Source of the DNA: Gammaproteobacteria bacterium
GTDB taxonomy: Bacteria > Pseudomonadota > Gammaproteobacteria > Tenderiales > Tenderiaceae
DNA: 54,935 nt
Assembly: GCA_024277755.1 (NCBI GenBank)
Contig: JAJRUN010000002.1
Span: forward strand, 1 to 54,935
Reading direction: 5' to 3'
Of the stretch, positions 40,234 to 54,824 are shown in pieces (position 1 is the stretch's first letter; each line of letters starts with the position of its first letter). The notes beneath the pieces were generated by a model. The model was not told the origin of the DNA. It saw only the letters and a list, made by a program, of their open reading frames with translations, and ran no database searches. The position numbers were made by a program, and so were the translations under genes.

Positions 40234-42405
40234 ATGGATGTCACCCACATTATTGATCAACTCAACGACCCGCAACGCGCCGCGGTCACCGCGCCGCAGG
40301 GCCAGCAACTGGTACTGGCGGGTGCTGGCAGCGGCAAGACCCGCGTGCTGGTGCACCGTATTGCCTGGATCATGGCGGTGGAAAATATCTCGCCCTACAA
40401 CATCATGGCAGTCACCTTTACCAATAAAGCCGCCACTGAGATGAAACACCGCATCGAGGAACTGCTCGGCCAACCCATCGGTGGCATGTGGGTGGGCACC
40501 TTTCATGGTTTGGCACACCGTTTTCTGCGCGCTCACTGGAAAGAAGCGGCGCTGCCGCAAGCCTTCCAGATCCTCGATTCCGACGACCAATATCGCCTGA
40601 TTCGCCGCCTGCTCAAAAACCTGGAGCTGGACGAATCAAAATGGCCACCGCGCCAGGTGCAGTGGTTCATCAGTGCACGCAAGGATGAAGGCCAGCGCCC
40701 GCAACACATTGACCACCTTAATGACCCCCACAGCAAGCAGATGGTGCGCATCTATCAGGCCTACGAAGACCATTGCTGCAAGGCCGGGCTGGTAGACTTT
40801 GCCGAACTGCTGCTGCGCGCCCACGAACTGCTGCGTGATCGCGCCGACATTCTGCATCACTACCGTGAACGATTTCGCTTTGTGCTGGTGGATGAGTTTC
40901 AGGACACCAACACCATCCAGTATGCCTGGCTGCGACTATTGGCCGGGGAGACGGGCAACCTGTTTATCGTCGGCGATGATGACCAGTCTATTTACGGCTG
41001 GCGCGGTGCCAAAATCGAAAACATTCATAAGTTTAACCAGGATTACCCTAGGACAGAGGTGATCAAACTGGAGCAGAACTATCGCTCCACGGCTAACATC
41101 CTCAAGGCTGCCAACACCCTGATCGACAACAACGATGACCGACTGGGCAAGGAGCTGTGGACCGACGGCGAGGAGGGTGAACTGATTCAACTCTACACCG
41201 CCTTCAATGACCTGGACGAAGCCCGCTTCATCGTTGATCGTATCCGTCAATGGGTTAACGATGGCAATGCCCGCCGCGAAGCCGCCATTCTCTATCGTTC
41301 CAATGCCCAGTCACGGGTGCTTGAGGCCGAACTGCTGGCACAGAGCGTCCCGTACCGTATCTACGGTGGCCAGCGCTTCTTCGAACGCTTGGAAATCAAG
41401 AACGCAATGGCCTACCTGCGCCTGATCGCCAACCGCCATGATGACGGCTCGTTTGAACGGGTGGTCAATACGCCGACACGCGGCATCGGTGATCGCAGCA
41501 TGGCCGCAGTACGTGATTTAGCCCGTGAGCGGGCTATCACCCTGTGGCATGCCGCCGAGATCATCATCAGCGAAAAGCGCCTGCCAGCCCGCGCCACCAA
41601 TGCCATCCAGAGCTTCCTCAACCTGATTATCGCCATCACTAATGAAACCCAGACACTGGAACTGGCGCAGCAAACCGACCACATGCTCAACCGCTGCGGC
41701 CTGCTTGATCACTACAAAAAGGACAAAGGTGAAAAAGGCCAGGCCAGAGTAGATAACCTGGAAGAGCTGGTCAGTGCGGCGCGTGAATTCGAATACGATG
41801 AAGAGACCGCAGAGGCCGTGGACATGCTCACTGCCTTCCTTTCTCATGCAGCACTGGAAGCAGGGGAGGGACAAGGTGACCCATGGGAAGATTGCGTGCA
41901 AATGATGACCCTTCACTCAGCCAAGGGACTGGAATTCCCACTGGTATTCCTTTGCGGCATGGAGGAGGGGTTGTTCCCGCACAAGATGTCGATGGAAGAG
42001 CCCGGTCGGCTGGCTGAAGAACGCCGCCTCTGCTACGTTGGCATCACCCGCGCCCGCCAACTGCTCTATATCACCCACGCCGAAGTCAGGCGTCTGCATG
42101 GTCAGGAGCTTTTTTCACTGCCATCCCGCTTTGTCAGTGAAATCCCCGATGAACTGATACATACCGTGCGCCCTAAAGCCAGCGTCAAACGCACCACCCA
42201 ATCAAGCCGTGGTAATGACTCTGAATATACCCTGGCAGCACCAGAAGGTTTTTATATCGGCCAACGAGTGTTGCATCAAAAGTTCGGCCTAGGAGTATTG
42301 CTCAACCATGAAGGGCAGGGCAGTAGCGCCCGTGTACAGGTTAACTTTGATGATGCTGGCAGCAAGTGGCTGGTAATTGCCTATGCCAATCTTTCACCCT
42401 GCTAA
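40234..42405 (+). CDS. uvrD: DNA helicase II
   Basis: LAGAGSGKTRVL, AVTFTNKAA, GTFH, LVDEFQDTN, VGDDDQSIYGWRGA, LEQNYRS, MTLHSAKGLEF, EERRLCYVGITRA, C-terminal Tudor-like domain. Confidence 0.97.
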   Translation: MDVTHIIDQLNDPQRAAVTAPQGQQLVLAGAGSGKTRVLVHRIAWIMAVENISPYNIMAVTFTNKAATEMKHRIEELLGQPIGGMWVGTFHGLAHRFLRAHWKEAALPQAFQILDSDDQYRLIRRLLKNLELDESKWPPRQVQWFISARKDEGQRPQHIDHLNDPHSKQMVRIYQAYEDHCCKAGLVDFAELLLRAHELLRDRADILHHYRERFRFVLVDEFQDTNTIQYAWLRLLAGETGNLFIVGDDDQSIYGWRGAKIENIHKFNQDYPRTEVIKLEQNYRSTANILKAANTLIDNNDDRLGKELWTDGEEGELIQLYTAFNDLDEARFIVDRIRQWVNDGNARREAAILYRSNAQSRVLEAELLAQSVPYRIYGGQRFFERLEIKNAMAYLRLIANRHDDGSFERVVNTPTRGIGDRSMAAVRDLARERAITLWHAAEIIISEKRLPARATNAIQSFLNLIIAITNETQTLELAQQTDHMLNRCGLLDHYKKDKGEKGQARVDNLEELVSAAREFEYDEETAEAVDMLTAFLSHAALEAGEGQGDPWEDCVQMMTLHSAKGLEFPLVFLCGMEEGLFPHKMSMEEPGRLAEERRLCYVGITRARQLLYITHAEVRRLHGQELFSLPSRFVSEIPDELIHTVRPKASVKRTTQSSRGNDSEYTLAAPEGFYIGQRVLHQKFGLGVLLNHEGQGSSARVQVNFDDAGSKWLVIAYANLSPC

Positions 42406-42427: not shown

Positions 42428-42805
42428 CTATTGCAGCAAGCGTACGACCATTTCAACAAGCTCACTATTTTCAAACGGCTTGGCAATGTAATCTGTCACA
42501 CCCTCATCCGCAGACGAAATCACACTCGGCAAATCGGGTCTTGCGCTCAACATCAAAAATGGCAGCTTAGCAGTTGAAATATTGGCCCGTACTTGCGCCA
42601 AAAGCCCACAACCACTAAGCCGCGGCATATTCCAGTCAGAAATCAACAGGTCATACTCATACTTCTGCAAACACTCCAATGCAGCCTGCCCATCAGAAAC
42701 AATCGTGATATTGGCGCCATTTGTTGGCTTACGTAAAATAGTCTTTACTGCCAACGCAATACTGGCATCATCTTCCGCAATTAAAATATTTTTCTGTTTC
42801 ATCAT
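42428..42805 (-). CDS. Single-domain response regulator (CheY-like)
   Basis: IAEDD, LISDWNMP, MLSAR, IAKPF; receiver residues intact. Confidence 0.9.
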   Translation of the reverse strand: MMKQKNILIAEDDASIALAVKTILRKPTNGANITIVSDGQAALECLQKYEYDLLISDWNMPRLSGCGLLAQVRANISTAKLPFLMLSARPDLPSVISSADEGVTDYIAKPFENSELVEMVVRLLQ

Positions 42806-42820
42806 GACAGCACTCGGTAT

Positions 42821-43201
42821 TTACTGGCGCAACATATCGCATAGCAGCCGCATTAGATTACGTGGACTAAAGGGCTTGACCATGAATTGATCTGCACCAA
42901 CCTCCACAGCCTTTTCCTGATCGGAAACCTGACCATAAGCCGTCAGAATAACAATCTTCATATCATTGAAGCGTGCGTCTGAACGCAGTTTTTCACAGAC
43001 ATCAAAACCAGTCATTCCAGGCATACCCACATCAAGCAAAACCAAATCCGGGCTCAAATAACACGCCTTTTTATATGCCTCTACACCATCAACAGCAATA
43101 ACCGATTCAAAGCCAGCCTTCTCAACCATATAGCAAATTGATTCCCGAATATTTGATTCATCGTCGCATATCAAAATAGTTTTTTTTACATAACCATTCA
43201 T
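42821..43201 (-). CDS. Single-domain response regulator
   Basis: ICDDE, LLDVGMPG, ILTAY, MVKPFSP; 4-nt overlap with the kinase stop. Confidence 0.9.
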   Translation of the reverse strand: MNGYVKKTILICDDESNIRESICYMVEKAGFESVIAVDGVEAYKKACYLSPDLVLLDVGMPGMTGFDVCEKLRSDARFNDMKIVILTAYGQVSDQEKAVEVGADQFMVKPFSPRNLMRLLCDMLRQ

Positions 43202-45123
43202 GCCGTTTTCTCTGAGCCCTCTGCTAAAGGTAGAGTAAAGACAAACCGACTGCCCTTGCCTTGCTCACTCTCCACCCAAATATGACCAGAATAATGCTCA
43301 ACAATATCCTTGCAGATAGCCAGGCCAAGGCCACTACCACCAATTTCACGTGTATCAGAACTATTCACCTGGTGAAAACTTTCAAAAATACTGCCTAGCT
43401 CTTCTTCAGGAACCCCTAACCCGGTATCAGAGACAGAAACCTCAACCTCATTTCCAATTGCAGCCATGGCAACAGTCACGGTACCAGATGCAGTAAACTT
43501 CAAGGCATTGGAGAGCAGATTAACAAACAATTGTTTAAAGCGGTCCACATCAATATTGACCGAAAGTTCACTCTCGGAAAGGGTCATTTCAAACTGCAAC
43601 CCCTTGTCAGAAAATGCCTGAACAAACAGCTCTGCTGACGACATTAATAATTCAGCCACATTAACTCGCCGATCGTTCCAGTCTACCTTGCCCGAATCTA
43701 TTTTCTGCAAATCGAGCAGATCATTTATTAAACGCCCAAGTCGGTCGCTTTCTTCGTTGATAATGGAAAGAAAATGTTTCTGCGAATCAATATCAAGCTC
43801 TTCAATATCATTCTGTAAAATTTCAGCGAATGATTTAATCGATGTCAATGGTGTACGTAATTCGTGAGAAACAACAGAGACAAATTCCGATTTAACTTTA
43901 TTTAAATGCTGTAACTGAAGGTTTGCCTGTTCAAGCTCTGAAGTTCGCAAGCGAACCAGGTCTTCCAGATTATCCATCAGTTGCGCAAGCGAATATGCCT
44001 TTTCTTCCAACTCCTTCTCAACCTTCTTTTGCTCACTAATATCCGTTCTGATCGCTACATACTCGTATGGCACACCGCTCTCATTCATAAATGGCACGAT
44101 GGTAGTATTCACCCAAACCTCTTCACCACATTTTGACTTGTTAAGTATTTCGCCATGCCAGACACCCCCAGCAGAAATTACGTCCCACATGCCCGAAAAA
44201 AAACGACGACTATGAAAGCCGGACTTGATAATGTCATGCTTTTTTCCCAATAATTCGTCACGGCTAAAACCAGTCGCATCAACAAACTTCTGATTGGCAT
44301 AGGTGATACAACCATCAACATCGGTAATACTGACAATCGAGTGTTCATCCATTGCAGACTTCTGCGTATTCAACGCTTTCAAAGTCTTTTTAATTACTGC
44401 ATCCTGTTCAAACAAGTTAACCGACGCCTCGTTCAAAGCAATCCCCAGCTGTTCAATCTCTAGGGAGCGGCTATCAATAGGAATCATTTGGCCATGTTTA
44501 TTTTTTAACTGACCTGCAAAGGTCGCTGCGTCACGCAACATTCTCAACGGCCTACGCATCACCAACTGAATCAAAGCAACCAACATGACGATCATCATAA
44601 GACCATCCATCATATAGTCATACAAGTATTGCTTAGCAATATTTTCTGCTTCAGCCAGGCTATAATTCAAACGCAGCCAGCCAACGACATGAGCACCCTC
44701 AATAGGCTGCCACACCGTTAGCTGACCGGAGACCTGCTTCAGTTGAACATTCACACTTCCAGGAATATCAATCAACTGCTCTTCATAACGCAGCACAGGT
44801 TCACCCGTTTGATCAACAAAAACATCAGCGATCACCCGCCCTTCTACATCAGAAATTTTCACCTGATGCACACCTGGGAAACGCGCCGACCTCAACAACA
44901 ACTGTTCAGTAGAAGAAAAGTCCTGAGTAACAATATGTTCGACACTGGTAACAGCAATATTTTCTGCCAATGCCTGTGCCTGAAGAACAGCCGAATTAAC
45001 CACCCGTATCGCACTTTTATCGGCTTCATGAACCGCAAAGAAAGGGATAATCAGACCAAGCAACAGGCTCACAAGCAGCATTACCTGACGATCAAGCCGT
45101 CGAGGCAACAGTCTCTGCAACAT
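43198..45123 (-). CDS. Membrane sensor histidine kinase (periplasmic domain, HAMP-like, PAS, HisKA, HATPase)
   Basis: Two TM segments, PAS (ITYANQKF..TGFS...MWDVISAGGVWHGEILN), SHELRTPLT, NLLSNALKFT, DTGLG, GSGLGLAI. Confidence 0.92.
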   Translation of the reverse strand: MLQRLLPRRLDRQVMLLVSLLLGLIIPFFAVHEADKSAIRVVNSAVLQAQALAENIAVTSVEHIVTQDFSSTEQLLLRSARFPGVHQVKISDVEGRVIADVFVDQTGEPVLRYEEQLIDIPGSVNVQLKQVSGQLTVWQPIEGAHVVGWLRLNYSLAEAENIAKQYLYDYMMDGLMMIVMLVALIQLVMRRPLRMLRDAATFAGQLKNKHGQMIPIDSRSLEIEQLGIALNEASVNLFEQDAVIKKTLKALNTQKSAMDEHSIVSITDVDGCITYANQKFVDATGFSRDELLGKKHDIIKSGFHSRRFFSGMWDVISAGGVWHGEILNKSKCGEEVWVNTTIVPFMNESGVPYEYVAIRTDISEQKKVEKELEEKAYSLAQLMDNLEDLVRLRTSELEQANLQLQHLNKVKSEFVSVVSHELRTPLTSIKSFAEILQNDIEELDIDSQKHFLSIINEESDRLGRLINDLLDLQKIDSGKVDWNDRRVNVAELLMSSAELFVQAFSDKGLQFEMTLSESELSVNIDVDRFKQLFVNLLSNALKFTASGTVTVAMAAIGNEVEVSVSDTGLGVPEEELGSIFESFHQVNSSDTREIGGSGLGLAICKDIVEHYSGHIWVESEQGKGSRFVFTLPLAEGSEKTA

Positions 45124-45977
45124 CAGAAGCCCTTGTCGAATGGTTTAATCAGCTGCCGAACAACATTGTATTCAGCATCACTGGTCGCATAAAAACCAGT
45201 ATATTTTTTATCCAGCGCCTCGATAATAATTTTATGCTGCTGATTTCTCGAATCCAGATTCAAAAAAGCCTGGCGCATTTTTTCCAGCATTTCCACATCG
45301 ACAAAACCACTTGCAGAAACATTATAAGGAGGCAACTGTGGCGAGGAGTGCAAAATCCTCAAACCTTTTCCTTGCCACTTAAAAGCCGTGGTGTCCTTGA
45401 GAATACCAGCGTCATAAAAACCACGCATAACGGCGCGTGCAATATTATCGTAATGACCAATAAAACTCTGCTTGCCAAGCTGGTCCAAGTTTATTCCCGA
45501 ACCAGCCACGACAGCACGCTGTAACAATGCAGCAGGATCACCAAAAGCAAATGACTTACCAGCAAGATCTTCGATAGTTTTTATCGGGCTATCCTCACGC
45601 ACCACAATCATCAACTGAAACGAGCCTTTACCGCGAGTAACTGTTTTAGCCACCAACTGAGCATCACCCATCTCATGAGCACGTAAATAGGCGACCGGCG
45701 TAAGATAAGCAAGCTGAACTTTTCCATCAGCAACATCAGTAATCGCCTGCTTCATATTCGAAGACAATTTAAGCGCAACAGGTTTCCCTAGCGCCTTACT
45801 CAGATAATCAGTCAACGGACTAAGCCGGCGATGCATAACTGCCGGCGTATCCATCGCGACAGAACCAAATAAAACCCTATCATCAGAGATCTCCGCATGA
45901 CATAACCCGGAAGTCAATCCAGCCAACAGGCCAATCAAAGTCATAATCGATTTTATTGAATACTGATAAACACTCAT
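45123..45977 (-). CDS. PhnD/PtxB-fold periplasmic substrate-binding protein
   Basis: Signal peptide, PLTDYLSKALGKPV, GKVQLAYLTP, IVVREDSPIKTIEDLAGKSFAFGD, GHYDN; stop overlaps the kinase start by 1 nt. Confidence 0.88.
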   Translation of the reverse strand: MSVYQYSIKSIMTLIGLLAGLTSGLCHAEISDDRVLFGSVAMDTPAVMHRRLSPLTDYLSKALGKPVALKLSSNMKQAITDVADGKVQLAYLTPVAYLRAHEMGDAQLVAKTVTRGKGSFQLMIVVREDSPIKTIEDLAGKSFAFGDPAALLQRAVVAGSGINLDQLGKQSFIGHYDNIARAVMRGFYDAGILKDTTAFKWQGKGLRILHSSPQLPPYNVSASGFVDVEMLEKMRQAFLNLDSRNQQHKIIIEALDKKYTGFYATSDAEYNVVRQLIKPFDKGF

Positions 45978-45993
45978 ACTAAAAACCTAGCCT

Positions 45994-46815
45994 TCAAACT
46001 ATTTTTAATGGCAACTCAACGGATAAAACAGTTCCCTTTCCAACATTACTTTCTATCGAAATTCCCCCCTGATAATGAGAAATAATATATCTACTCACAT
46101 ATAAACCGAGCCCTTTTCCCAAAAGAGGAACACCTGTTTTTTTCGAAAAAAAACTTTTCTGTTTTTCATCAGACATACCTATACCTGTATCACTAATAGA
46201 GAAAAACAAACCGTCACCGGAAGTACTGCTTCTCAAATAAAGTTTAATTGATCCTTTGTGAGTAAATGCAAGGGCATTGGAAAGCAGGTTGTAAACAACA
46301 AGTGACAGTCGATCCTTATCAAGCAAAGCACTCAAACTCTCAAGCTCTGTCTCAAAGCTAAAATCCAGCCCTTTTGATTGGCATAAAACAGAAAATGGGC
46401 GAACACACCTTTCAATCACATCAATGACATTCACAACCTCATCATGCCAATGAACAGAATCAGAGCACATATTATGAAACTCAACCACGTTGGATATCAT
46501 ACGACTCAGGCGATCAGCCTCAGAACTAATGATTTTCAAATATTGCTGCCTATCATTATCTGAAATACTTCCACCATCAGACAATAATAATTCTGAAAAC
46601 AACTTCAACCCCGTTAGCGGTGTTTTGAAATCGTGGGCGATTATCGAAACAAAATTCGAATTTTCTTCCGCCAATCGCTTTAAGTCATTACTGGACCTCT
46701 CAAGATTAATTCTGCTTGAATCAAGTTTATCTTCAAGTTCAACAACCTTATCAAGTAACTTTTGATCACTCATCCCAACATTTGACATGTCAGTTGTATT
46801 ACATACCATTTTCAA
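45994..46815 (-). CDS. Soluble sensor-less histidine kinase (short coiled coil, HisKA, HATPase)
   Basis: AHDFKTPLT, YNLLSNALAFT, SDTGIGM, GKGLGL; no TM or input domain. Confidence 0.85.
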   Translation of the reverse strand: MKMVCNTTDMSNVGMSDQKLLDKVVELEDKLDSSRINLERSSNDLKRLAEENSNFVSIIAHDFKTPLTGLKLFSELLLSDGGSISDNDRQQYLKIISSEADRLSRMISNVVEFHNMCSDSVHWHDEVVNVIDVIERCVRPFSVLCQSKGLDFSFETELESLSALLDKDRLSLVVYNLLSNALAFTHKGSIKLYLRSSTSGDGLFFSISDTGIGMSDEKQKSFFSKKTGVPLLGKGLGLYVSRYIISHYQGGISIESNVGKGTVLSVELPLKIV

Positions 46816-46882
46816 TCGTCTCCACCCACCCTACGTTCACGAGGATAAAAGATGTTAAATCATCAACTGACATCCGTTTAAA

Positions 46883-48112
46883 CTATAATACCCGCCTTGC
46901 GGAAGCAACATATTCGTTTGTTTTTTCGATAACAGACATTATCATATCGCTTTTCAGGCCAAGCCTGATTGCCGCCTGTGACGATGTTATTTCCACAGCA
47001 TCTTTACCATCATCACCGCCAAGAATAAGGTTTGCCAGATAAATCACCAACAGTTCGAAACTGATGTTCTCTGAATCAAATGGCGAATGATGAAAATGAA
47101 CTATATCGTAGAATTCATCACCAAAATTCCACGCTCTAATCAACACCGAGCCAAAGTCTGCGTGAAGACTATCCATGATTTCGTCTACAGCTGCCTTATC
47201 AATCTCTGACCAAGTGATTGACAGATCATCAACAATACTGACCAGGAGAAGTTTTCCAACATCATGTAATAAACCTAATAAAAATAATTTATCGGGATTT
47301 GAGTGATTTAACATTATTGCCAGTAATTTTGCACAATAAGCAGTTTCAAGAGAATGCCACCACAGATCTTCAAGAACCTTCTTTAAAATTATATTTTCTG
47401 AAACAAGAACACCTTTATTGGCAAGTGCAACAATATAGTTCTTTGTTTCCGGAAGCCCCAATCGTGTAATGGCCCTTTCAACAGACAGGCAATCTGACGC
47501 ACCACGAACCAAAGGACTATTGGCAATACTAATTAACTTCAGGGCAATTGCTGAGTCCAATTCAACAACCTTGACAATATCTTCAATTGTTACATCACCA
47601 CTTTCAAACAGTTTATTAAAATTTTTCACAACCTTGGGTAACACAGGCAGATTGGTATAACCTTTTTTAAACCTATCAACAACCAGATCAGCCAAACATT
47701 CAGCCTGCACACCACCAAGCAAACCTGCGGTTTCATGCTCAAGCAGGCCTTTGACCTTTAAAACAAACTCCGCCGCTTTAAAAGGCTTAATCAGATAATC
47801 ATCTACACCAGCCTTAGCTGCCACAGCATAGCTATCACGATCACCTCTAGCGGTAAGCATCATAAAAGGGGTTTTTGAAGTATCATTATTTTTTCGCAGA
47901 TCGGAAAGAAGCTCATCACCATTTTTCTTTGGCATATTCCAATCAGAAATAACAAGCTGGTAATCATTGGTTGAGGCCATTTTCCACGCCTCAACTCCAT
48001 TCTTTGCATGATCAACGACATATCCAGGCAGAGCTTTTTTTAAAATCGCCTTGATTGCCATGGCAATATGAATTTCGTCATCTGCAACCAGAATTTTTTT
48101 CACACCACTCAT
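46883..48112 (-). CDS. Response regulator with HDOD output domain
   Basis: REC (VADDE, ISDWNMP, MLTAR, IKPF), then HDOD (LPVLP, DSAIALKLISIANS, AITRLG, WWHS, GLLHDVGK). Confidence 0.9.
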   Translation of the reverse strand: MSGVKKILVADDEIHIAMAIKAILKKALPGYVVDHAKNGVEAWKMASTNDYQLVISDWNMPKKNGDELLSDLRKNNDTSKTPFMMLTARGDRDSYAVAAKAGVDDYLIKPFKAAEFVLKVKGLLEHETAGLLGGVQAECLADLVVDRFKKGYTNLPVLPKVVKNFNKLFESGDVTIEDIVKVVELDSAIALKLISIANSPLVRGASDCLSVERAITRLGLPETKNYIVALANKGVLVSENIILKKVLEDLWWHSLETAYCAKLLAIMLNHSNPDKLFLLGLLHDVGKLLLVSIVDDLSITWSEIDKAAVDEIMDSLHADFGSVLIRAWNFGDEFYDIVHFHHSPFDSENISFELLVIYLANLILGGDDGKDAVEITSSQAAIRLGLKSDMIMSVIEKTNEYVASARRVL

Positions 48113-48121
48113 CCATTAAGC

Positions 48122-50227
48122 CTATAGAACCAAACCAGCCGGCTTCCTGAAAGGCATTTCAATATTAAAAACGGCCCCCTCACCAAGCACACTTTCAACC
48201 CACACTCGCCCATGATAACGATCAACAACGCAACGGGTAATATACAAGCCCAGCCCAGTTCCTTTACCCATATTGGCTGACCCTTGAATCTGCTCAAAAG
48301 GTTGAAATATTTTATCTATCTGTCCCTCATCCATGCCGGAGCCACTATCACAAACAGATAACCTAAAAACCTCACCATCAACCGTTTTCAGTCTATTCAA
48401 TATAACCTTAATAAACCCTTTCTCGGTAAACTTAAGTGAATTTGACAATAAATTATAAACAACCTGTGCCAGCCGGTCTGCATCAATAACCGTGTTAATT
48501 TCATCCTCTTCGCACTCAAACAAAAATTCAAGACCTTTTGACTCAACAGATATTTTAAACGGTTTAATGCAATCTTTTACTACACCAACAACATCAACAT
48601 AGTCATCATTCCACTGCATCTTACCCGCTGATATTTTTTGAAAATCCAGGACATTACTAATCAGTCGGCCAAGACGGTCTGTCTCAGAACTTATGATAGA
48701 GAGGTATTCTTCCTGGGATTGTCTGTCAATATTTTCAAGATCATCCAGCATAATTTCAGAAAACAATTTAATGCCAGTCAACGGTGTTCTAAGGTCGTGT
48801 GAGACAATTGATACAAACTCTGATTTAGCATCACTAAGCTGTTTTAAATCCCTATTAGCCTCCTCCAATTCCGACGTTCTTTCTTTCACCTTTATTTCAA
48901 GGCTTGTGGCAAGATCAAACAATTCGCCATTTAATTTAACCAGGTTTTCTTCTGCCACTTTTACCTCTGTGATATCTGTCAAAGATCCTAGCACCTCTAT
49001 CTGTCCTTTTTTTCTTTCACTCAGCGCCAAAGAATCTTGAATCCAAACATAATCACCATCAGAATTTTTTATCCTATAATCACAAACCATACTCCCGTTT
49101 CTATATAGCTCAGACATCTGCGCATTCAAAAAACGATCATCTTCAATGGCCAGCCTTGCTAACCATTTCCGTTTGTCACCCAAAAGACAACCTGATTCAT
49201 AGCCAATAATTTTTTTTGAATTTTCACTGACAAAGGTCACATCTAAAACAGATCCAGATGAGATACCTGTATAAATTATTGTCGGATTATGATCGAGCGT
49301 ATATTGAAAGTGCGCACGCGTTTTAACTAAATCATCTTCGGTTTTTTCATGCTTATCTATCTCAACCCGGAGTTTCTGGTTGTTTTCCTCTAAAGCTAAA
49401 TGTTGCTCATCAACCTTTTCAAGGCTTCTTTTAAATATCTGCAAGCCACCAGCCAAAGCATCCAGTTCTTTGCCACTTGAAACAACGGGTATATTCACAT
49501 CCTTTTTTCCACTCGAAAGCCTATCAATGACGCCTATCAACGCCCCAATATCATAGGTCAACTTTCTTGACAAAAATATGCTAATAAAAAATGTTCCAAC
49601 AGCCGTAACAGCAAACACAATAATTATTAAGTTAACTACCTCAGTCATGCTCTCAAAATTTTCATCAAGTTCGCCATTAACATCTACACTGACAGCTTTA
49701 AGGCTTTCCTGAAGGGTTACAACCAGATGATTAAAGATACCACTGGCCTCTAGAAGATGTTTCTCAGCCATCGCCGCATCTACTGACGACATCTCGATTG
49801 CATTAATAATAGTCAATTTATAATCTTTGAAATCCTCTGTAACAGCGACATATAAATCCTGCCCATTTTCGATTTCATGTGATAACAAAAGACCATTTAC
49901 CAACAACTCCTCAATACCACTCAGGTGTTCAACCAGGGGCCTCCACAACGCATATATCGTTTCATTGTCTGCCCCATTTTTTGCTATTTTCAACACCTGA
50001 TTCACTTTGACATGTATGTGAGATATACGTGCTGAAACACCGGATAACTGACCAATAACAACCAGGTCATTCTCGGAAATATCTACTAGCCTTTCTTCTT
50101 GCTCACCCATTTTCATAACAAAAAGGGCTAGAATCAACAGCATTGAGATTAGAATAATGACAGGGGAAAATAAGAACTTTCCTCTGAGCGAAGCGGAGTT
50201 TAAATGGTTTATGATTCTGATCAACAC
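48122..50227 (-). CDS. Membrane sensor histidine kinase (four-helix-bundle-like periplasmic domain, HAMP, PAS, HisKA, HATPase)
   Basis: Two TM helices around a helical periplasmic region, HAMP (IDRLSSGKKDVNIP...ELDALA), PAS (DYRIKNSDGDYVWI), SHDLRTPLT, NLLSNSLKFT, GTGLGL. Confidence 0.9.
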   Translation of the reverse strand: MLIRIINHLNSASLRGKFLFSPVIILISMLLILALFVMKMGEQEERLVDISENDLVVIGQLSGVSARISHIHVKVNQVLKIAKNGADNETIYALWRPLVEHLSGIEELLVNGLLLSHEIENGQDLYVAVTEDFKDYKLTIINAIEMSSVDAAMAEKHLLEASGIFNHLVVTLQESLKAVSVDVNGELDENFESMTEVVNLIIIVFAVTAVGTFFISIFLSRKLTYDIGALIGVIDRLSSGKKDVNIPVVSSGKELDALAGGLQIFKRSLEKVDEQHLALEENNQKLRVEIDKHEKTEDDLVKTRAHFQYTLDHNPTIIYTGISSGSVLDVTFVSENSKKIIGYESGCLLGDKRKWLARLAIEDDRFLNAQMSELYRNGSMVCDYRIKNSDGDYVWIQDSLALSERKKGQIEVLGSLTDITEVKVAEENLVKLNGELFDLATSLEIKVKERTSELEEANRDLKQLSDAKSEFVSIVSHDLRTPLTGIKLFSEIMLDDLENIDRQSQEEYLSIISSETDRLGRLISNVLDFQKISAGKMQWNDDYVDVVGVVKDCIKPFKISVESKGLEFLFECEEDEINTVIDADRLAQVVYNLLSNSLKFTEKGFIKVILNRLKTVDGEVFRLSVCDSGSGMDEGQIDKIFQPFEQIQGSANMGKGTGLGLYITRCVVDRYHGRVWVESVLGEGAVFNIEMPFRKPAGLVL

Positions 50228-50374
50228 AGGAATTTGATTTCAGTTTATTAAATGACACAACCGACTCAACAATACAGCTGAGTCATCACAGAACATTTGT
50301 ATGCCGATGTAATCGACTTCAGGTTGAACGCCAGTATTACCGATTCATCTTTCGGCTAATCCCAATTTTCTGGT

Positions 50375-50770
50375 TTAATTCTTTTGACCCAATAGTCTTT
50401 TAATCATTTTCACCAGTTCGTCGCCATTAAACGGTTTAACAATATATTCAACCACTCCCGCATCTTGCGCTGACTTAACACTGTCCAGATCACTGCGCCC
50501 CGTCAGCATTAAAAAAGGTATGCTGCTGGTCTTTGGATTTGCCTTCATATCCCGCAATAGCTCAGCCCCACTTTTCTTTGGCATGTTCCAATCTGAAATG
50601 ACGACATCAATCTTCTTATCCTGCAACACCTTCCAGGCCTCCTCACCATCCATTGCAATCGTCATTTCATTACAGTCAATTTTTTTCCCTAGGATGACTG
50701 AAATGCCCTTGGCCAAAAACCGTTCATCATCAACCAGTAAAATATTTGCCTTATTCGCTGTCATTTCCAC
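50375..50770 (-). CDS. Single-domain response regulator (CheY-like)
   Basis: LVDDE, VISDWNMP, MLTGR, IVKPF. Start may be the ATG at 50764. Confidence 0.9.
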   Translation of the reverse strand: MEMTANKANILLVDDERFLAKGISVILGKKIDCNEMTIAMDGEEAWKVLQDKKIDVVISDWNMPKKSGAELLRDMKANPKTSSIPFLMLTGRSDLDSVKSAQDAGVVEYIVKPFNGDELVKMIKRLLGQKN

Positions 50771-51033: not shown

Positions 51034-52116
51034 ATGAAACGCCGTGACTTTATTAAAAAAGCCGCCGGAGGCGCATTACTTGCGGCTGGCGCAAGCACTG
51101 CTGCACCGGCCATTGCTGCACGTAAACGCTTCAACTGGAAGCTGGTTACCACCTGGCCACCTAATTTCCCTATCTTTCAGGAAGGCGCAGAAAAATTTGC
51201 CAAGGACATCGAAGTGATGAGCGACCGACGCTTGCGCATCAGTGTCTATGCTGGCGGCGAACTGGTGCCTGCCCTGCAAAGCTTCGATGCCGTTTCACAG
51301 GGCGTCGTACAAATGGGCCATGGCGCAGCATATTACTGGGCCGGTAAAGTGCCTGCGGCACAGTTCTTCACTGCAGTACCATTCGGAATGAATGCCCAAG
51401 GCATGAGCGCCTGGCTATACAAGGGCGGCGGCCTCAATCTTTGGCGTGATATCTACAAGCCTTATAATCTGGTGCCCTTTCCCATGGGCAATACCGGCGT
51501 GCAAATGGGCGGCTGGTTTCGCAAAGAGATCAACTCTATTGCCGATCTCAAAGGTCTGAAAATGCGTATTCCAGGCTTGGGGGGCAAGGTTATGGCCAAG
51601 GCTGGCGTTAACCCTGTACTGCTACCCGGTGGTGAAATATATACCGCTCTGGAACGCGGCACCATCGATGCCACTGAGTGGGTTGGCCCCTTCCATGATC
51701 AACGCCTTGGCCTGCACCGTGCAGCTAAAAACTACTACTATCCTGGCTGGCATGAACCAGGCCCTGTGCTTGAACTCACCGTTAACCGTAAAGCCTGGGG
51801 CGAGCTACCGAAGGAATATCAACTGATGATAGAAACGGCTGCCGCTGCGGCCAATATATGGATGCACGCTGAATTCGAAACTAAAAACATGCAGGCATTA
51901 CAACAGCTCAAACAGAACCACAAGGTCAATATATTGGAATTCCCTGACGACGTGATTAAGCAGCTCAAGCGTCTGACCCATGAAACACTGGAACAGGAAG
52001 CCGCCAAGGACCCGACTTTTCGCCAGGTCTATCAAGCCTACAAATCATTTGCCCAATCAAATGATGCCTGGAGTGATATTTCTGACGCCGCCTATGCCAA
52101 GGCTCTCAAGCTATAG
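51034..52116 (+). CDS. dctP: TRAP transporter substrate-binding protein, TakP-like, Tat-exported
   Basis: MKRRDFIKK twin-arginine signal, WKLVTTWP, YAGGELVP, YYWAGK, GNTGVQMGGWF, KMRIPGLGG, EWVGP, YYYPGWHEPG. Confidence 0.93.
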   Translation: MKRRDFIKKAAGGALLAAGASTAAPAIAARKRFNWKLVTTWPPNFPIFQEGAEKFAKDIEVMSDRRLRISVYAGGELVPALQSFDAVSQGVVQMGHGAAYYWAGKVPAAQFFTAVPFGMNAQGMSAWLYKGGGLNLWRDIYKPYNLVPFPMGNTGVQMGGWFRKEINSIADLKGLKMRIPGLGGKVMAKAGVNPVLLPGGEIYTALERGTIDATEWVGPFHDQRLGLHRAAKNYYYPGWHEPGPVLELTVNRKAWGELPKEYQLMIETAAAAANIWMHAEFETKNMQALQQLKQNHKVNILEFPDDVIKQLKRLTHETLEQEAAKDPTFRQVYQAYKSFAQSNDAWSDISDAAYAKALKL

Positions 52117-52129
52117 CAGGCTATTAAAT

Positions 52130-52178
52130 CTGGAAAACACAGTTGGGCGATGCCTGCCGCCCAACTGAGGTTTTCCAG
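52130..52178. terminator. Long interrupted hairpin downstream of dctP
   Basis: CTGGAAAAC-a-CAGTTGGGCG-atgcctgc-CGCCCAACTG-ag-GTTTTCCAG; no clean U tract, so it may be a stabiliser rather than a terminator. Confidence 0.45.
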
Positions 52179-52294
52179 CTTAATAATTAACATTAAAGCT
52201 CCTCGGGTCCCGCCCCGATATCTAGGCAAGGGCTATCTAGCGTTTATACCTACCTATTTAAGCCTGTTTATATCGTCCACAAGGAGAACCGGTT

Positions 52295-52795
52295 TTGACC
52301 CTTAAAACACCTCGCATCAGCCATATGATCCAACAGTTCATCAGGATGACCCTGCTAATCCTGATGTTCAGCAGTTCAGCCAGTTATGGATCTGCTTCTG
52401 GCGGTGGTGGCGGAGCCGCCATTGCCGATGGCAAAGCCAATTACCTCACCCTCGAACCCGCCTTTGTGGTCAACATCATTGATGGCAACCGGATGCGCTT
52501 CATGCAGCTTGCAATTGATTTAATGTCTATGGACAGCCATGCCATTCAAGCAGTTCAGGACCACCGTGCCCCCATACGCCATGAGCTGCTGATGCTATTT
52601 GCTCACCGCGACATTTCCGAGGTTATGGGTTTGAAGCAACGCGAAAAACTGCGTCAGGATGCGCTAGAGAAAATTCAAGAGACTTTGCTCAAATATGCCG
52701 ACATTGATTCCACAGGGACGGCGGAAACAGAAGACGGGCACAAATACCCTACCGGCGTACAAGAGGTACTGTTTACCAATTTCGTCATCCAATAA
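52295..52795 (+). CDS. FliL-family protein (orphan)
   Basis: N-terminal hydrophobic segment, YLTLEPAFVVNI, IRHELLMLF, REKLRQDALEKIQ, VQEVLFTNFVIQ; AAGGAG RBS before TTG 52295. Confidence 0.85.
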   Translation: MTLKTPRISHMIQQFIRMTLLILMFSSSASYGSASGGGGGAAIADGKANYLTLEPAFVVNIIDGNRMRFMQLAIDLMSMDSHAIQAVQDHRAPIRHELLMLFAHRDISEVMGLKQREKLRQDALEKIQETLLKYADIDSTGTAETEDGHKYPTGVQEVLFTNFVIQ

Positions 52796-52810
52796 CCGCT
52801 CTGATCAGGC

Positions 52811-54133
52811 TCAGTAGTCCTTCATCTCATTCATCAGATCAGGCAACCACTGCACAGTGTCAGGGAAGAGAATGATTCCCCCCAGCACCACAACCTGAAT
52901 CAACACAAATGGAATCACACCTTTATAAATATGCTGAATCCTGACCTCGGGCGGTGCTGCCGCCTTGAGATAAAACAACGAAAAGCCAAATGGCGGCGTC
53001 AAAAATGAGGTTTGCAGATTCATAGCAATCAGCACTGCAAACCAAAGCATATTGATATCCATTAATTCTGCAATCGGCGCCAAAATCGGCACAACAATAA
53101 AACAGATCTCAAGGAAGTCGAGAAAAAAGCCCAACACAAAAATCAGCAACATACTCACCGCGATAAAGGCCCACTCACCGCCGGGCAGCGCCAGCATAAA
53201 ATCTTCCACGACCAGATCACCGCCCATGGATCGAAACACCAAACCAAAAGCGGTGGCACCGATCAAGATCATAAACACCATACTGGTGAGTCGAGCAGTC
53301 TGTCGTGATGCATCCTTGACATTTTCCAGACTAAGACGCTTGCGCATGGCCGATAACAGCATTGCCCCCAAGGCCCCAACGGCTGCCGACTCAGTGGGCG
53401 AGGTAACCCCAAAAAATATCGATCCCAGCACCGCAAACACCAGCAACAGCGGCGGCAACAAGCTTTTAAGCACCTGTTTACCCAAACCGGAGGCATCAGG
53501 CTCTACCGGCATCGCCGGCGCCATCTCCGGCTTGAAAAAGGCGATTGCCAGGATATAGAGCATAAACGCGGCCACCAACAGCAAGCCCGGCACCACGGCG
53601 GCGGCAAACAACTCACCCACCGGCACACCAATCACATCCCCCAACAAAATCAGGATAATACTGGGCGGGATAATTTGCCCCAACGTGCCAGACGCAGCAA
53701 TGGTGCCGGAAGCCAGTCCCGTGTCATAACCACGCTTAAGCATGGCAGGCAGGGCGATAATCCCCATGGTTACCACCGTGGCACCCACAACGCCAGTGGT
53801 CGCCGCCAACAAGGCCCCCACCGCAACAATGGAAACTGCCAAACCACCACGTAACCGGCCAAACAGCCGCGCCATGGTCTCCAGCAGCTCCTCTGCCAGG
53901 CCGGATTTCTCCAGCATCACCCCCATAAAGACAAACAGCGGCACCGCCAGCAGGGTGAAATTGGTCATGATTCCCCAGACCCGCATCGGCAGCAGCTGAA
54001 ATTCCTGCCAGCCAAGAAACCAGCCACCAAAGCCCATCGCCACCGCCCCCAGGGTGAAGGCTACCGGAAAACCGATCAGCAACAGTGCAATCGCCACCGC
54101 AAACATGATAATTGCCCAATATTCCATTTCCAT
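52811..54133 (-). CDS. dctM: TRAP transporter large permease
   Basis: GFPVAFTL, LLAVPLFVFMG, GTIAASGTLGQIIPPS, TPTESAAVGA, NLQTSFLTPPFGFSLFYL. Confidence 0.94.
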   Translation of the reverse strand: MEMEYWAIIMFAVAIALLLIGFPVAFTLGAVAMGFGGWFLGWQEFQLLPMRVWGIMTNFTLLAVPLFVFMGVMLEKSGLAEELLETMARLFGRLRGGLAVSIVAVGALLAATTGVVGATVVTMGIIALPAMLKRGYDTGLASGTIAASGTLGQIIPPSIILILLGDVIGVPVGELFAAAVVPGLLLVAAFMLYILAIAFFKPEMAPAMPVEPDASGLGKQVLKSLLPPLLLVFAVLGSIFFGVTSPTESAAVGALGAMLLSAMRKRLSLENVKDASRQTARLTSMVFMILIGATAFGLVFRSMGGDLVVEDFMLALPGGEWAFIAVSMLLIFVLGFFLDFLEICFIVVPILAPIAELMDINMLWFAVLIAMNLQTSFLTPPFGFSLFYLKAAAPPEVRIQHIYKGVIPFVLIQVVVLGGIILFPDTVQWLPDLMNEMKDY

Positions 54134-54681
54134 TATTGGGCCTCCTGCGTTGATGCTTCGGGCTTGAAAATTGTTTGCAGGCTACGAATAGATAGGGATA
54201 ACCCTTGCAAGGCCAGCAATACAAACCCCGCCGGGATTATCGCCTTCAGCAACCAACGGTAAGGCAGCCCCCCCGGATCGGGCGAAGATTCAGCCCAACC
54301 GAAAGACATCTCAACAAAGGGTACAGCGCTGATAATCATCAGCACACAAAAGGGCAGCAGCATGAACAGACAACCAAGCAGATTAACCATGGCCTGACGT
54401 CGCCGCGTCATCCATTTGGATTGATAAAAGACATCAACCCGGACATGTTCATCATGCTTGAGGGTATTCGCAGCGCCAAGCAGAAAGATCAGCGCAAAGA
54501 TATGCCACTCCAGCTCCTGCAAGGCCACCGAACCGGCTTGAAACAGATAGCGCATACCGACGTCGTAACAAACCAGCAGCACCAGCGCCACCACCAGCCA
54601 GGCGGTGAGACGGCCAAACCATTCATTGAGCCGGTCGATAACATTCGCCAGCTTGTCGAGTTGTTTCAGCAAAGCATTCAT
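54133..54681 (-). CDS. dctQ: TRAP transporter small permease
   Basis: Four TM helices, LQELEWH, EHVRVDVFY, SPDPGGLP; stop overlaps the dctM start. Start uncertain (ATG 54681 or TTG 54702). Confidence 0.92.
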   Translation of the reverse strand: MNALLKQLDKLANVIDRLNEWFGRLTAWLVVALVLLVCYDVGMRYLFQAGSVALQELEWHIFALIFLLGAANTLKHDEHVRVDVFYQSKWMTRRRQAMVNLLGCLFMLLPFCVLMIISAVPFVEMSFGWAESSPDPGGLPYRWLLKAIIPAGFVLLALQGLSLSIRSLQTIFKPEASTQEAQ

Positions 54682-54824
54682 ATCTAAAGGAGTCAGAGGC
54701 AAGAGGAATGCCGCGCATTCTACCGGCTCAACCCGGCGCTTAGAAGTAAATCAGGGTATTTGTTTGTTCTTATTGTTAACCCTAAAAATATAGAGAAGAC
54801 CAATAACAACAAAAACAATAACTT

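What the first reader, a model, noticed from the sequence alone, without database searches (positions are those of the whole stretch)
43198..45977. Transporter-free PhnD-fold protein that lost the STSG motif, coupled to a PAS kinase
Seen: the binding-protein stop overlaps the kinase start (TGATG at 45123), the kinase overlaps the next receiver, and there are no ABC permease or ATPase genes nearby. Where E. coli PhnD reads FAFGDPNSTSG (hydroxyls that bind phosphonate oxygens), this protein reads FAFGDPAALLQ, while the downstream His (GHYDN) remains. The kinase PAS has the Aer/NifL-like pattern F..MW..I..G..W.G...N. Inference: a split sensor in which a soluble binding protein presents a non-phosphonate ligand to the kinase, possibly a sulfur oxyanion as in TtrS/ThsS-type sensors, with the PAS domain adding flavin redox input.
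Basis: partly seen in the sequence, partly recalled or inferred. Interest (0 to 1): 0.62.

Follow-up and report, generated by a model that had tools for sequence, protein, structure and literature searches.

The report
Binding-protein co-sensor for a redox kinase
A secreted binding protein of the phosphonate-transporter fold has no transporter and a greasy, rebuilt pocket, and most likely acts as the outside ligand detector for the neighbouring membrane kinase, a known sensor design in an unstudied subfamily whose ligand is unknown.

Summary
A 284-aa exported PF12974 (PhnD/PtxB-fold) protein at 45123-45977(-) shares one base with the start of a 641-aa membrane PAS histidine kinase. That kinase overlaps a receiver gene by 4 nt. 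No ABC genes lie within 10 kb, and the 85%-complete genome has no PhnE.

The protein belongs to a tight, highly conserved clade (FAFGDxxALLQR in 119 of 120 close homologues). The whole oxyanion cage is gone, not just STS: both Tyr became Met/Phe, the first Ser became Ala, and TSGx is deleted. The His and the capping Tyr remain.

In 50 of 60 evaluable related loci the gene sits next to a co-directional membrane signalling protein. This is usually a HAMP-GGDEF cyclase and, in one derived clade, this PAS kinase. The kinase's periplasmic part models as a single Cache/PDC domain. Its PAS domain is 45% identical to FAD-binding MmoS PAS-A and keeps the Aer/MmoS flavin-pocket His, Asn and Arg.

So the split-sensor and flavin readings are supported, and the sulfur-oxyanion guess is not. 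The design is already known (AioX/ArrX; XAC2383-XAC2382). This is an uncharacterised variant with an apolar pocket and an unknown ligand. Interest is moderate.

The parts
45123..45977 (-). SBP284: exported PhnD/PtxB-fold binding protein of the 'ALLQR' clade, with no transporter
   Evidence: PF12974 E 1.4e-49. It falls below the NCBIfam PhnD (104 vs 261 bits) and subfamily (100.7 vs 112) cut-offs. AF2 pLDDT is 92.6; the best folds are PtxB, ArrX, PhnD, XAC2383 and AioX.
45894..45977 (-). Sec-type signal peptide, residues 1-28 (…GLTSGLCHA|E)
   Evidence: Read from the sequence. The AF2 N-terminal helix 4-24 has low pLDDT. There is no lipobox.
45516..45551 (-). FAFGDPAALLQR (residues 143-154): shortened, apolar replacement of the STS(G) oxyanion loop at a helix N-terminus
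   Evidence: Present in 119/120 homologues. Alignments to PtxB and PhnD. The helix starts at residue 151 in the model.
45444..45458 (-). GHYDN (residues 174-178): retained His of the STS-H motif
   Evidence: Present in 120/120 homologues. It aligns with PhnD H157 and Te_PtxB H160.
43198..45123 (-). HK641: membrane sensor histidine kinase (TM, periplasmic domain, TM, linker, PAS, HisKA, HATPase_c)
   Evidence: Pfam. Orthologues at 52-78% identity always lie next to an ALLQR SBP.
44620..45024 (-). Periplasmic single Cache/PDC-like domain of HK641 (about residues 34-168), the proposed docking site for the SBP
   Evidence: AF2 pLDDT 84.7: a long helix, a short helix and six strands between two TM helices. 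Foldseek matches WalK, 2P7J, vpHK1S-Z8 and CitA sensor domains. It is 27% identical over 237 aa to the sensor module of the GGDEF-EAL partner of the paralogous SBP.
44026..44361 (-). Cytoplasmic PAS domain (about residues 255-366), MmoS PAS-A/Aer/NifL type, probably binding FAD
   Evidence: PDB hits: MmoS 2e-41 (49/110 identical), Aer 2e-18, NifL 4e-14. H296, N328 and R359 correspond to Aer H53, N85 and R115.
43222..43893 (-). HisKA + HATPase_c transmitter (residues 411-634, H-box SHELRTPL)
   Evidence: Pfam E 2e-22 and 1.5e-30.
42821..43201 (-). REC126: single-domain receiver, translationally coupled to the kinase (ATGA overlap)
   Evidence: Pfam E 8.8e-27. Overlap shown. Conserved downstream in L001, L002 and L070.
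42428..42805 (-). REC125: second single-domain, CheY-like receiver (DWNMP)
   Evidence: Pfam E 5.9e-23. Conserved in L001-L004.
45994..46815 (-). HK273: soluble HisKA-HATPase kinase with no sensor domain, 16 nt upstream of the SBP; part of the conserved cassette
   Evidence: Pfam. Conserved directly upstream of the SBP in L001-L004 and L070.
46883..50770 (-). Upstream co-directional signalling genes: REC-HDOD (46883-48112), HAMP-PAS kinase HK701 (48122-50227), REC131 (50375-50770). These are context, not shown to belong to the SBP module.
   Evidence: Pfam. Low G+C of 38-45% against about 51% elsewhere.

Best explanation
SBP284 is the detachable ligand-binding half of a two-piece (bipartite) periplasmic sensor. 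It is exported and has no ABC transporter. I infer that it docks on the single Cache/PDC-like periplasmic domain of the adjacent membrane kinase HK641 and changes the kinase/phosphatase balance when it closes around its ligand. HK641 probably combines this outside signal with an inside redox signal read by an MmoS/Aer/NifL-type FAD-PAS domain. It then passes phosphate to the two co-transcribed single-domain receivers, REC126 and REC125, so the cassette has no DNA-binding output. The ligand is not a phosphonate, phosphite or other tetrahedral oxyanion. The pocket has been rebuilt to Met42, Met75, Thr93, Phe120, Ala150, Leu151, His175 and Tyr218, so a small apolar or soft ligand is more likely. 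Shown: gene order and overlaps, absence of a transporter, family-wide coupling to signalling partners, the folds, and motif conservation. Inferred: physical docking, the direction of regulation, flavin content and ligand class.
For: 1. Overlapping genes SBP/HK/REC.
2. No PhnE in the genome, and all other full-length secreted PF12974 paralogues (C121, C108, C63) also sit beside signalling proteins.
3. 50 of 60 evaluable related loci have a co-directional adjacent membrane signalling partner. Of 35 upstream ORFs of at least 400 aa, 34 are GGDEF and 28 also show HAMP.
4. SBPs coupled to the PAS kinase form one clade (100/98 support) nested among cyclase-coupled ones, so SBP and partner change together.
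5. The same periplasmic module (27% identity over 237 aa) is attached to a GGDEF-EAL output beside the paralogous ALLQR SBP in this genome. It is also attached to a hybrid kinase beside an SBP in L083, where one SBP is flanked by both a cyclase and a kinase.
6. The periplasmic domain models as Cache/PDC. AioS, the partner of AioX, is listed as sCache-like.
7. Pocket mapping is consistent in two alignments, read against the published ligand residues.
8. The PAS evidence.
Against: No interaction, ligand or flavin has been measured. Sequence homology between the kinase-type and the common cyclase-type periplasmic domains is only marginal (hhalign E 7e-5 with prob 63%; E 0.005 with prob 7%), so one SBP clade may dock on two different domain families. 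Ten of 60 loci show no adjacent partner. A distant kinase homologue in Azospira restricta has the module but no adjacent SBP. The genome is only 85% complete, so a distant transporter cannot be fully excluded. Pocket residues come from sequence alignment at about 24% identity, not from coordinates. R359 is conserved in only 22 of 34 kinase orthologues.
Confidence: 0.7

Rival explanations
1. One reading: the SBP senses a sulfur oxyanion (thiosulfate, tetrathionate, sulfite or sulfate) and presents it to the kinase, as the fused PhnD-like domains of TtrS/ThsS are thought to do.
For: The family is concentrated in sulfur-oxidising Gammaproteobacteria (Tenderia, Chromatiaceae, Ectothiorhodospiraceae, Thioalkalispiraceae, Acidiferrobacterales). 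Single loci lie beside dsrC and a Psr/Soe-like molybdoenzyme (L072) or a flavocytochrome c sulfide dehydrogenase (L083). Gln153, Arg154 and His175 are conserved and could bind an anion at the helix N-terminus.
Against: Both Tyr hydroxyls and all Ser/Thr hydroxyls that hold oxyanion oxygens in PhnD, PtxB, AioX and ArrX are replaced by Met, Phe and Ala or deleted. The sulfur-gene neighbours are not conserved. The only recurrent neighbours are tgt-yajC-secDF, by synteny. The taxonomic bias may simply reflect descent.
Confidence: 0.1
2. It is an ordinary transport SBP for a phosphorus compound whose ABC permease and ATPase lie elsewhere, possibly in the unassembled 15% of the genome. The adjacency to the kinase would then be regulatory at most.
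For: Pfam and JGI annotation call it a phosphonate-transport SBP. The genome is 85% complete. Some SBPs serve both transport and signalling (review).
Against: No PhnE homologue exists in the genome. The protein scores below both NCBIfam cut-offs. The STS-H oxyanion motif is destroyed. Coupling to signalling genes holds in 50/60 loci from many genomes, and none of the loci inspected shows adjacent ABC genes.
Confidence: 0.05
3. The SBP no longer binds any small molecule. It is a permanent accessory subunit (a pseudo-receptor) that stabilises or gates the Cache domain, which is the real ligand sensor.
For: The canonical ligand contacts are lost and the loop is shortened. The partner has its own Cache/PDC domain, a fold that often binds ligands directly. 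A related kinase module exists without an adjacent SBP.
Against: The putative pocket positions are invariant or nearly so across 52 sequences (M42, M75, T93, F120, A150, L152 invariant; H175, Y218 at least 90%). That is more than fold maintenance needs. The capping Tyr and the His of the closure machinery are retained. The PF12974 member BstB shows the fold can bind apolar ligands.
Confidence: 0.12

Closest known systems
[quoted passage not shown] 2018, J Biol Chem 293:10767). The citation was seen and structures 5UB3-5UB7; the paper's content is from my own recollection, because it is not held in the library.
   Same: Both have a PhnD-fold periplasmic binding protein without a transporter, co-transcribed with a membrane signalling protein that carries a periplasmic Cache-type domain. 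As I recall, that paper already reported homologous pairs with different cytoplasmic output modules. Most relatives of SBP284 are paired with a HAMP-GGDEF cyclase. The XAC2383 structures are among the best fold matches (TM 0.73-0.76).
   Different: Sequence similarity to XAC2383 is weak (21 bits, E 0.0016, 17-19% identity). XAC2383 was crystallised with ATP and chloride and, as I recall, prefers phosphate-containing anions, whereas SBP284 has an apolar pocket. Here the output is a PAS(FAD) histidine kinase with two receivers.
AioX-AioS-AioR, ArxXSR and ArrXSR arsenic oxyanion sensors (PMC5908839)
   Same: Both have a PF12974 binding protein encoded next to, and signalling through, a membrane histidine kinase whose periplasmic domain is sCache-like. 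ArrX and AioX are among the best sequence and fold matches (2e-15 and 4e-10).
   Different: Of the AioX pocket residues (Tyr88, Cys106, Tyr131, Ser161, Ser163, His192, Asp210), only the His is kept. There is no sigma-54 or CitB-type DNA-binding regulator and no aio/arx/arr molybdoenzyme genes beside it. The kinase carries an extra FAD-type PAS domain.
TtrS / ThsS tetrathionate and thiosulfate sensor kinases
   Same: The PhnD-like fold is used for sensing, not transport, in a two-component system.
   Different: In TtrS/ThsS the PhnD-like domain is part of the kinase polypeptide (established knowledge). Here it is a separate secreted protein and the kinase has a Cache/PDC-like periplasmic domain instead. 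The oxyanion-binding residues are missing.
PtxB / PhnD / HtxB ABC-transporter binding proteins
   Same: The fold is the same (Foldseek E 5e-25, TM about 0.7). The His of the STS-H motif and the capping Tyr of PtxB are retained.
   Different: There is no transporter. The STS motif is lost or deleted, both ligand Tyr are replaced, and the protein scores below the NCBIfam cut-offs.
MmoS PAS-A, Aer and NifL FAD-binding PAS domains
   Same: The kinase PAS domain is 45% identical to MmoS PAS-A and keeps the flavin-pocket His, Asn and Arg plus three Trp.
   Different: The protein context differs. MmoS is a soluble multi-domain hybrid kinase and Aer is a chemoreceptor. Here the PAS domain sits behind a periplasmic co-sensor module.
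BstB sterol-binding protein of Methylococcus capsulatus (PDB 7T1M, PMC10942540)
   Same: It is a PF12974-fold protein whose cleft is hydrophobic and binds an apolar ligand. It appears among the fold matches (TM 0.74/0.81).
   Different: It shares only 12% identity, works with an MMPL transporter in lipid trafficking and is not a signalling partner.

Membership tests
PhnD/PtxB phosphonate-phosphite ABC transporter binding proteins | Score above the curated family cut-offs (TIGR03431 equivalog, TIGR01098 subfamily) | tested here: not met
   104 bits against a 261 cut-off, and 100.7 against 112. Only the broad Pfam PF12974 is passed.
PhnD/PtxB phosphonate-phosphite ABC transporter binding proteins | STS-H motif and two Tyr that hydrogen-bond the ligand oxygens | tested here: not met
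   Tyr to Met75, Tyr to Phe120, Ser to Ala150, and TS(S/G)x deleted; only His175 is kept.
PhnD/PtxB phosphonate-phosphite ABC transporter binding proteins | Cognate PhnC/PhnE-type transporter genes | tested here: not met
   None lie in the window near the gene. No PhnE is found over the cut-off in the 85%-complete genome.
Bipartite PBP / Cache-domain signalling pairs (XAC2383-XAC2382 type) | PhnD-fold exported binding protein encoded next to, and co-directional with, a membrane signalling protein | tested here: met
   Overlapping genes here. The same arrangement occurs in 50/60 related loci.
Bipartite PBP / Cache-domain signalling pairs (XAC2383-XAC2382 type) | The partner carries a periplasmic Cache/PDC-type domain between two TM helices | tested here: met
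   AF2 model at pLDDT 84.7, with Foldseek matches to WalK, CitA, 2P7J and vpHK1S-Z8 sensor domains. Pfam itself gives only weak CHASE8/sCache hits.
Bipartite PBP / Cache-domain signalling pairs (XAC2383-XAC2382 type) | Physical interaction of the binding protein with the Cache domain that regulates output activity | not testable with these tools
   The structure tool folds single chains only, and there are no experimental data.
Bipartite PBP / Cache-domain signalling pairs (XAC2383-XAC2382 type) | Orthology to XAC2383 itself, or its preference for phosphate-containing anions | tested here: not met
   Only 21 bits to 5UB3. The pocket lacks anion-binding hydroxyls. This is the same design, not the same subfamily.
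AioX/ArxX/ArrX arsenic-oxyanion sensors | Pocket residues Tyr88, Cys106, Tyr131, Ser161, Ser163, His192, Asp210 | tested here: not met
   Mapped through PhnD equivalences given in PMC5908839 and alignment A3: Met75, Thr93, Phe120, Ala150, deletion, His175, gap.
AioX/ArxX/ArrX arsenic-oxyanion sensors | XSR gene cluster with a DNA-binding response regulator next to aio/arx/arr molybdoenzyme genes | tested here: not met
   The receivers are single-domain, and the neighbours are housekeeping and TRAP genes.
TtrS/ThsS sensor kinases | PhnD-like sensing domain fused into the kinase between its TM helices | tested here: not met
   The SBP is a separate gene with its own signal peptide. The kinase periplasmic domain is Cache/PDC-like.
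FAD-binding PAS domains (MmoS PAS-A / Aer / NifL class) | Sequence membership and the flavin-pocket residues His53, Asn85 and Arg115 (Aer numbering) | tested here: met
   MmoS 2e-41, Aer 2e-18, NifL 4e-14. H296, N328 and R359 are present and conserved in 29, 32 and 22 of 34 orthologues.
FAD-binding PAS domains (MmoS PAS-A / Aer / NifL class) | Bound flavin cofactor | not testable with these tools
   This needs a UV-visible spectrum of the purified domain.

The most novel reading that the evidence does not exclude
The ALLQR clade is a widespread, uncharacterised class of PhnD-fold periplasmic receptors whose oxyanion cage was rebuilt into a small Met/Met/His/Tyr/Phe pocket. It would then sense a non-anionic cue: a small hydrophobic or sulfur-containing neutral molecule, or a soft metal such as Cu(I), since the Met2-His-aromatic set recalls CusF-type sites. 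That cue would feed c-di-GMP synthesis in most lineages, and in Tenderia-like electrode- and sulfur-oxidising bacteria a flavin-gated phosphorelay. This would be a new ligand class for PF12974 signalling receptors.
Probability: 0.3. Interest if true: 0.6.

Novelty: new variant of a known kind. Interest (0 to 1): 0.4.

Why it matters
Two-piece sensors built from a transporter-type binding protein and a membrane kinase or cyclase are known, but only a few have a known ligand: arsenite or arsenate for AioX/ArrX, and phosphate-type anions for XAC2383. This clade is large and extremely conserved (hundreds of near-identical-motif homologues; about 4.5% of sampled gammaproteobacterial genera). It is confined to poorly studied chemolithotrophs, and its pocket chemistry is unlike any characterised PhnD-fold receptor. 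Finding its ligand would name an environmental cue that controls c-di-GMP (biofilm versus motility) in sulfur-, iron- and electrode-oxidising bacteria. It would also give a new binding-protein scaffold for biosensors. The practical point for annotation is that these genes are mislabelled as phosphonate-transport proteins.

Tried and rejected
- Conserved neighbours that might hint at the ligand: only tgt-yajC-secDF synteny and, in one clade, MMPL/LolA-like genes recur. Sulfur genes appear in single loci only.
- Sequence homology between the kinase-type and cyclase-type periplasmic domains: marginal and inconsistent, so I do not claim it.
- Promoter and terminator scan of the cassette: no more sites than in shuffled sequence.
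- Named organisms for the wider A-x-L-Q clade: all cluster members are unnamed environmental sequences.
- Other PF12974 paralogues of this genome as XAC2383-like: they are not; ArrX and PtxB are their best PDB matches.
- The XAC2383 paper could not be read because it is not held.
- Direct inspection of the pocket in 3D: the structure tool returns no coordinates, so pocket residues rest on alignments.
- A complex model of the SBP with the kinase domain: not possible with a single-chain tool.


Full report
**What is there**

On the minus strand of the window lie eight co-directional signalling genes between uvrD/rep (40234-42405) and a TRAP dctP gene (51034-52116):
- REC131 (50375-50770)
- HK701, a HAMP-PAS kinase (48122-50227)
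- REC-HDOD (46883-48112)
- HK273, a soluble HisKA-HATPase kinase (45994-46815)
- SBP284 (45123-45977)
- HK641 (43198-45123)
- REC126 (42821-43201)
- REC125 (42428-42805)

The SBP stop and the HK641 start share one base (TGATG). The HK641 stop and the REC126 start overlap as ATGA. The cassette has 38-45% G+C against about 51% in the rest of the window.

**The binding protein**

- SBP284 matches Pfam PF12974 over the whole model (E 1.4e-49). It stays below the NCBIfam cut-offs for PhnD (104 vs 261 bits) and for the phosphate/phosphite/phosphonate subfamily (100.7 vs 112).
- It has a Sec-type signal peptide.
- Its best solved relatives by sequence are PtxB (2e-17), ArrX (2e-15), AioX (4e-10) and E. 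coli PhnD (4e-6).
- An AlphaFold model (pLDDT 92.6) matches the same proteins by fold. It also matches XAC2383, HtxB and, more distantly, the sterol binder BstB.

**The motif**

E. coli PhnD, read from MG1655, has TFGNGDPNSTSGFLVPG. I used the published ligand residues for E. coli PhnD (Y47, Y93, S127, T128, S129, H157, E177, D205) and for Te_PtxB (Y55, Y100, S130-T131-S132, H160, cap Y208 held by D22). Two independent alignments, HMMER to PtxB and MAFFT to PhnD, give the same map:

| Canonical residue | SBP284 |
|---|---|
| first Tyr | Met75 |
| second Tyr | Phe120 |
| first Ser | Ala150 |
| following TS(G/S)x | deleted |
| His | His175 (kept) |
| capping Tyr of PtxB | Tyr218 (kept) |
| Asp that holds the cap | Met42 |
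| position of AioX Cys106 / PhnD Gly65 | Thr93 |

An HMM alignment of 150 cluster representatives shows that Ser at position 150, followed by L-x-P-R, is the rule outside this clade. The change is therefore the loss of the whole oxyanion cage, not a local mutation. It is also not decay. FAFGDxxALLQ[RKQ] occurs in 119 of 120 close homologues, GHYDN in 120, GSVAMD in 119 and LPPYN in 119. The mapped positions are invariant or nearly so in 52 sequences down to 51% identity.

**No transporter**

The genome is 2.65 Mb in 153 contigs and 85% complete. It has six PF12974 matches but no PhnE-type permease; the best score is 25 bits against a cut-off of 217. The other secreted full-length paralogues also sit beside signalling proteins:
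- C121: an ALLQR-type SBP overlapping a 798-aa GGDEF-EAL protein.
- C108: an SBP followed by a HAMP hybrid kinase.
- C63: an SBP followed by a dCache-HAMP-PAS hybrid kinase, with a REC-HD-domain protein upstream (domains read from its sequence, not scanned).

**Family-wide coupling**

A scan of one genome per species returned 69 loci with 55-70% identical SBPs. All are from Gammaproteobacteria-like MAGs, many of them sulfur oxidisers.
- Only L001-L004, plus metagenome loci L070/L071, have an HK641 orthologue downstream.
- Elsewhere a 430-480-aa ORF ends at or overlaps the SBP start. Of 35 such ORFs, 34 are GGDEF and 28 also show HAMP.
- Counting loci with at least 1.5 kb upstream, 50 of 60 carry a co-directional adjacent membrane signalling partner.
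- In a maximum-likelihood tree the kinase-coupled SBPs form one clade (100/98) nested among cyclase-coupled ones. The kinase pairing is therefore a derived switch of output, and SBP and partner changed together.
- In L083 one SBP is flanked by a HAMP-GGDEF cyclase upstream and a hybrid kinase downstream. That kinase's N-terminus is 35% identical to HK641's.
- Neighbouring genes beyond the pair are not conserved apart from synteny (tgt-yajC-secDF). The pair is a self-contained module, and the context gives no ligand hint.
- Among 400 evenly drawn genomes of the class, 18 have the protein, in 14 of 320 genera.

**The kinase**

- HK641 has TM1, about 135 periplasmic residues, TM2, a linker, PAS, HisKA and HATPase_c.
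- The first 200 residues model (pLDDT 84.7) as a long helix, a short helix and six strands between two membrane helices.
- Foldseek matches them to single Cache/PDC sensor domains of WalK, CitA, vpHK1S-Z8 and a Vibrio GGDEF protein. The review of SBP signalling lists AioS, the partner of AioX, as sCache-like.
- This module is clearly homologous to that of the GGDEF-EAL partner of the paralogous SBP in the same genome (27% over 237 aa).
- Its homology to the common cyclase-type module is only marginal, and I do not rely on it.

**The PAS domain**

The best PDB matches are all FAD-binding PAS domains: MmoS PAS-A (2e-41; 49 of 110 residues identical), Aer (2e-18) and NifL (4e-14). LOV domains follow far behind. 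The Aer structure paper names H53, N85 and R115 as flavin-pocket residues shared with MmoS H132, N164 and R195. HK641 has H296, N328 and R359 at these positions, and they are conserved in 29, 32 and 22 of 34 orthologues.

**Mechanism proposed**

SBP284 is the detachable ligand-binding half of a bipartite sensor. It closes on a periplasmic ligand and docks on the Cache/PDC domain of HK641. The kinase integrates this with cytoplasmic redox state through FAD-PAS and phosphorylates the two CheY-like receivers. In relatives (L001-L004) an OmpR-type regulator precedes the short kinase HK273. In the window a REC-HDOD protein stands there instead, so this copy has no DNA-binding output. Docking, the sign of regulation, the flavin and the ligand class are all inferences.

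**What it is compared with**

- The design is known. AioX/ArxX/ArrX signal to AioS-type kinases. In 2018 that paper still called them the only signalling members of the family.
- XAC2383-XAC2382 of Xanthomonas citri is a PhnD-fold protein paired with a Cache-domain diguanylate cyclase. The citation is and the structures. I recall that the paper also reported homologous pairs with other output modules, but it is not held in the library.
- SBP284 fails the residue tests for PhnD/PtxB and for AioX. It is not fused as in TtrS/ThsS, and it is only weakly similar to XAC2383 (21 bits).
- It therefore works like these systems but belongs to its own, uncharacterised subfamily.
- BstB shows that the fold can hold apolar ligands.

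**Ligand**

The sulfur-oxyanion idea is disfavoured, because the changes that exclude phosphonate remove the generic oxyanion cage. The remaining set is Met42, Met75, Thr93, Phe120, Ala150, Leu151, His175 and Tyr218, with Gln153 and Arg154 on the helix. This points to a small apolar or soft ligand. A Met2-His-aromatic arrangement recalls Cu(I) sites, but in more distant A-x-L-Q relatives Met75 is Leu or Ile, which argues for a packing role rather than metal ligation. I leave this as the novel case at 0.3.

**Verdict**

Noticed in passing
proteins P0134, P0141, P0148, P0163; no window coordinates: The nearest relatives outside the ALLQR clade (30-37% identity, STS motif intact) are methyl-accepting chemotaxis proteins with the PF12974 domain at the C-terminus, after the cytoplasmic MCP signalling domain. 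This is an unusual, apparently cytoplasmic placement of a periplasmic-binding-protein fold.
   Followed up: partly
own genome C121:2553-5821, C108:10912-13600, C63:33772-37800, C82:13390-15001: All PF12974 genes of this genome sit beside signalling genes, and none sits beside a transporter. C121 is a second ALLQR SBP overlapping a GGDEF-EAL protein with the same periplasmic module. The C82 copy lacks a signal peptide and follows an Aer-like PAS protein and a roadblock/LC7-like protein at a contig end.
   Followed up: partly
L083:1656-6712: One SBP is flanked by both a HAMP-GGDEF cyclase (upstream) and a hybrid histidine kinase (downstream) with the HK641-type sensor module, so it is possibly one binding protein serving two outputs. 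Flavocytochrome c sulfide dehydrogenase genes lie just upstream.
   Followed up: no
L052:5899-7677 and L056:5923-7644: Two tandem ALLQR-type SBP genes follow a single cyclase gene. The second copies form their own well-supported clade.
   Followed up: no
window 45994-46815: HK273 is a soluble HisKA-HATPase kinase with no sensor domain. It is conserved immediately upstream of the SBP in all kinase-type loci. In L001-L004 it is preceded by an OmpR-type regulator, and in the window by a REC-HDOD protein instead. Its role (partner kinase, phosphatase or phosphate sink) is unexplained.
   Followed up: partly
window 42428-50770: The eight-gene signalling cassette has 38-45% G+C against about 51% for the rest of the window. 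It sits between housekeeping uvrD/rep and a TRAP transporter, which suggests insertion or a different history.
   Followed up: no
L007:365-4660, likewise L009, L017, L023, L024, L061: In the SBP clade that mostly lacks an adjacent cyclase, an MMPL/RND transporter with a sterol-sensing-like region, a LolA-like protein and an unknown 396-aa protein lie about 1.3 kb upstream. This recalls the BstA/BstB lipid-trafficking context, but it may be plain synteny.
   Followed up: no
   Followed up: no
window 51034-54702: The TRAP transporter genes are split. dctP is on the plus strand, followed by a fliL-like gene, and dctM and dctQ are convergent on the minus strand.
   Followed up: no
L082:5001-8132 (Azospira restricta CP064781): A 1043-aa hybrid kinase has an HK641-like N-terminal module (33% identity) but no adjacent binding protein. 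It is preceded by a REC-HD-GYP-type gene.
   Followed up: no
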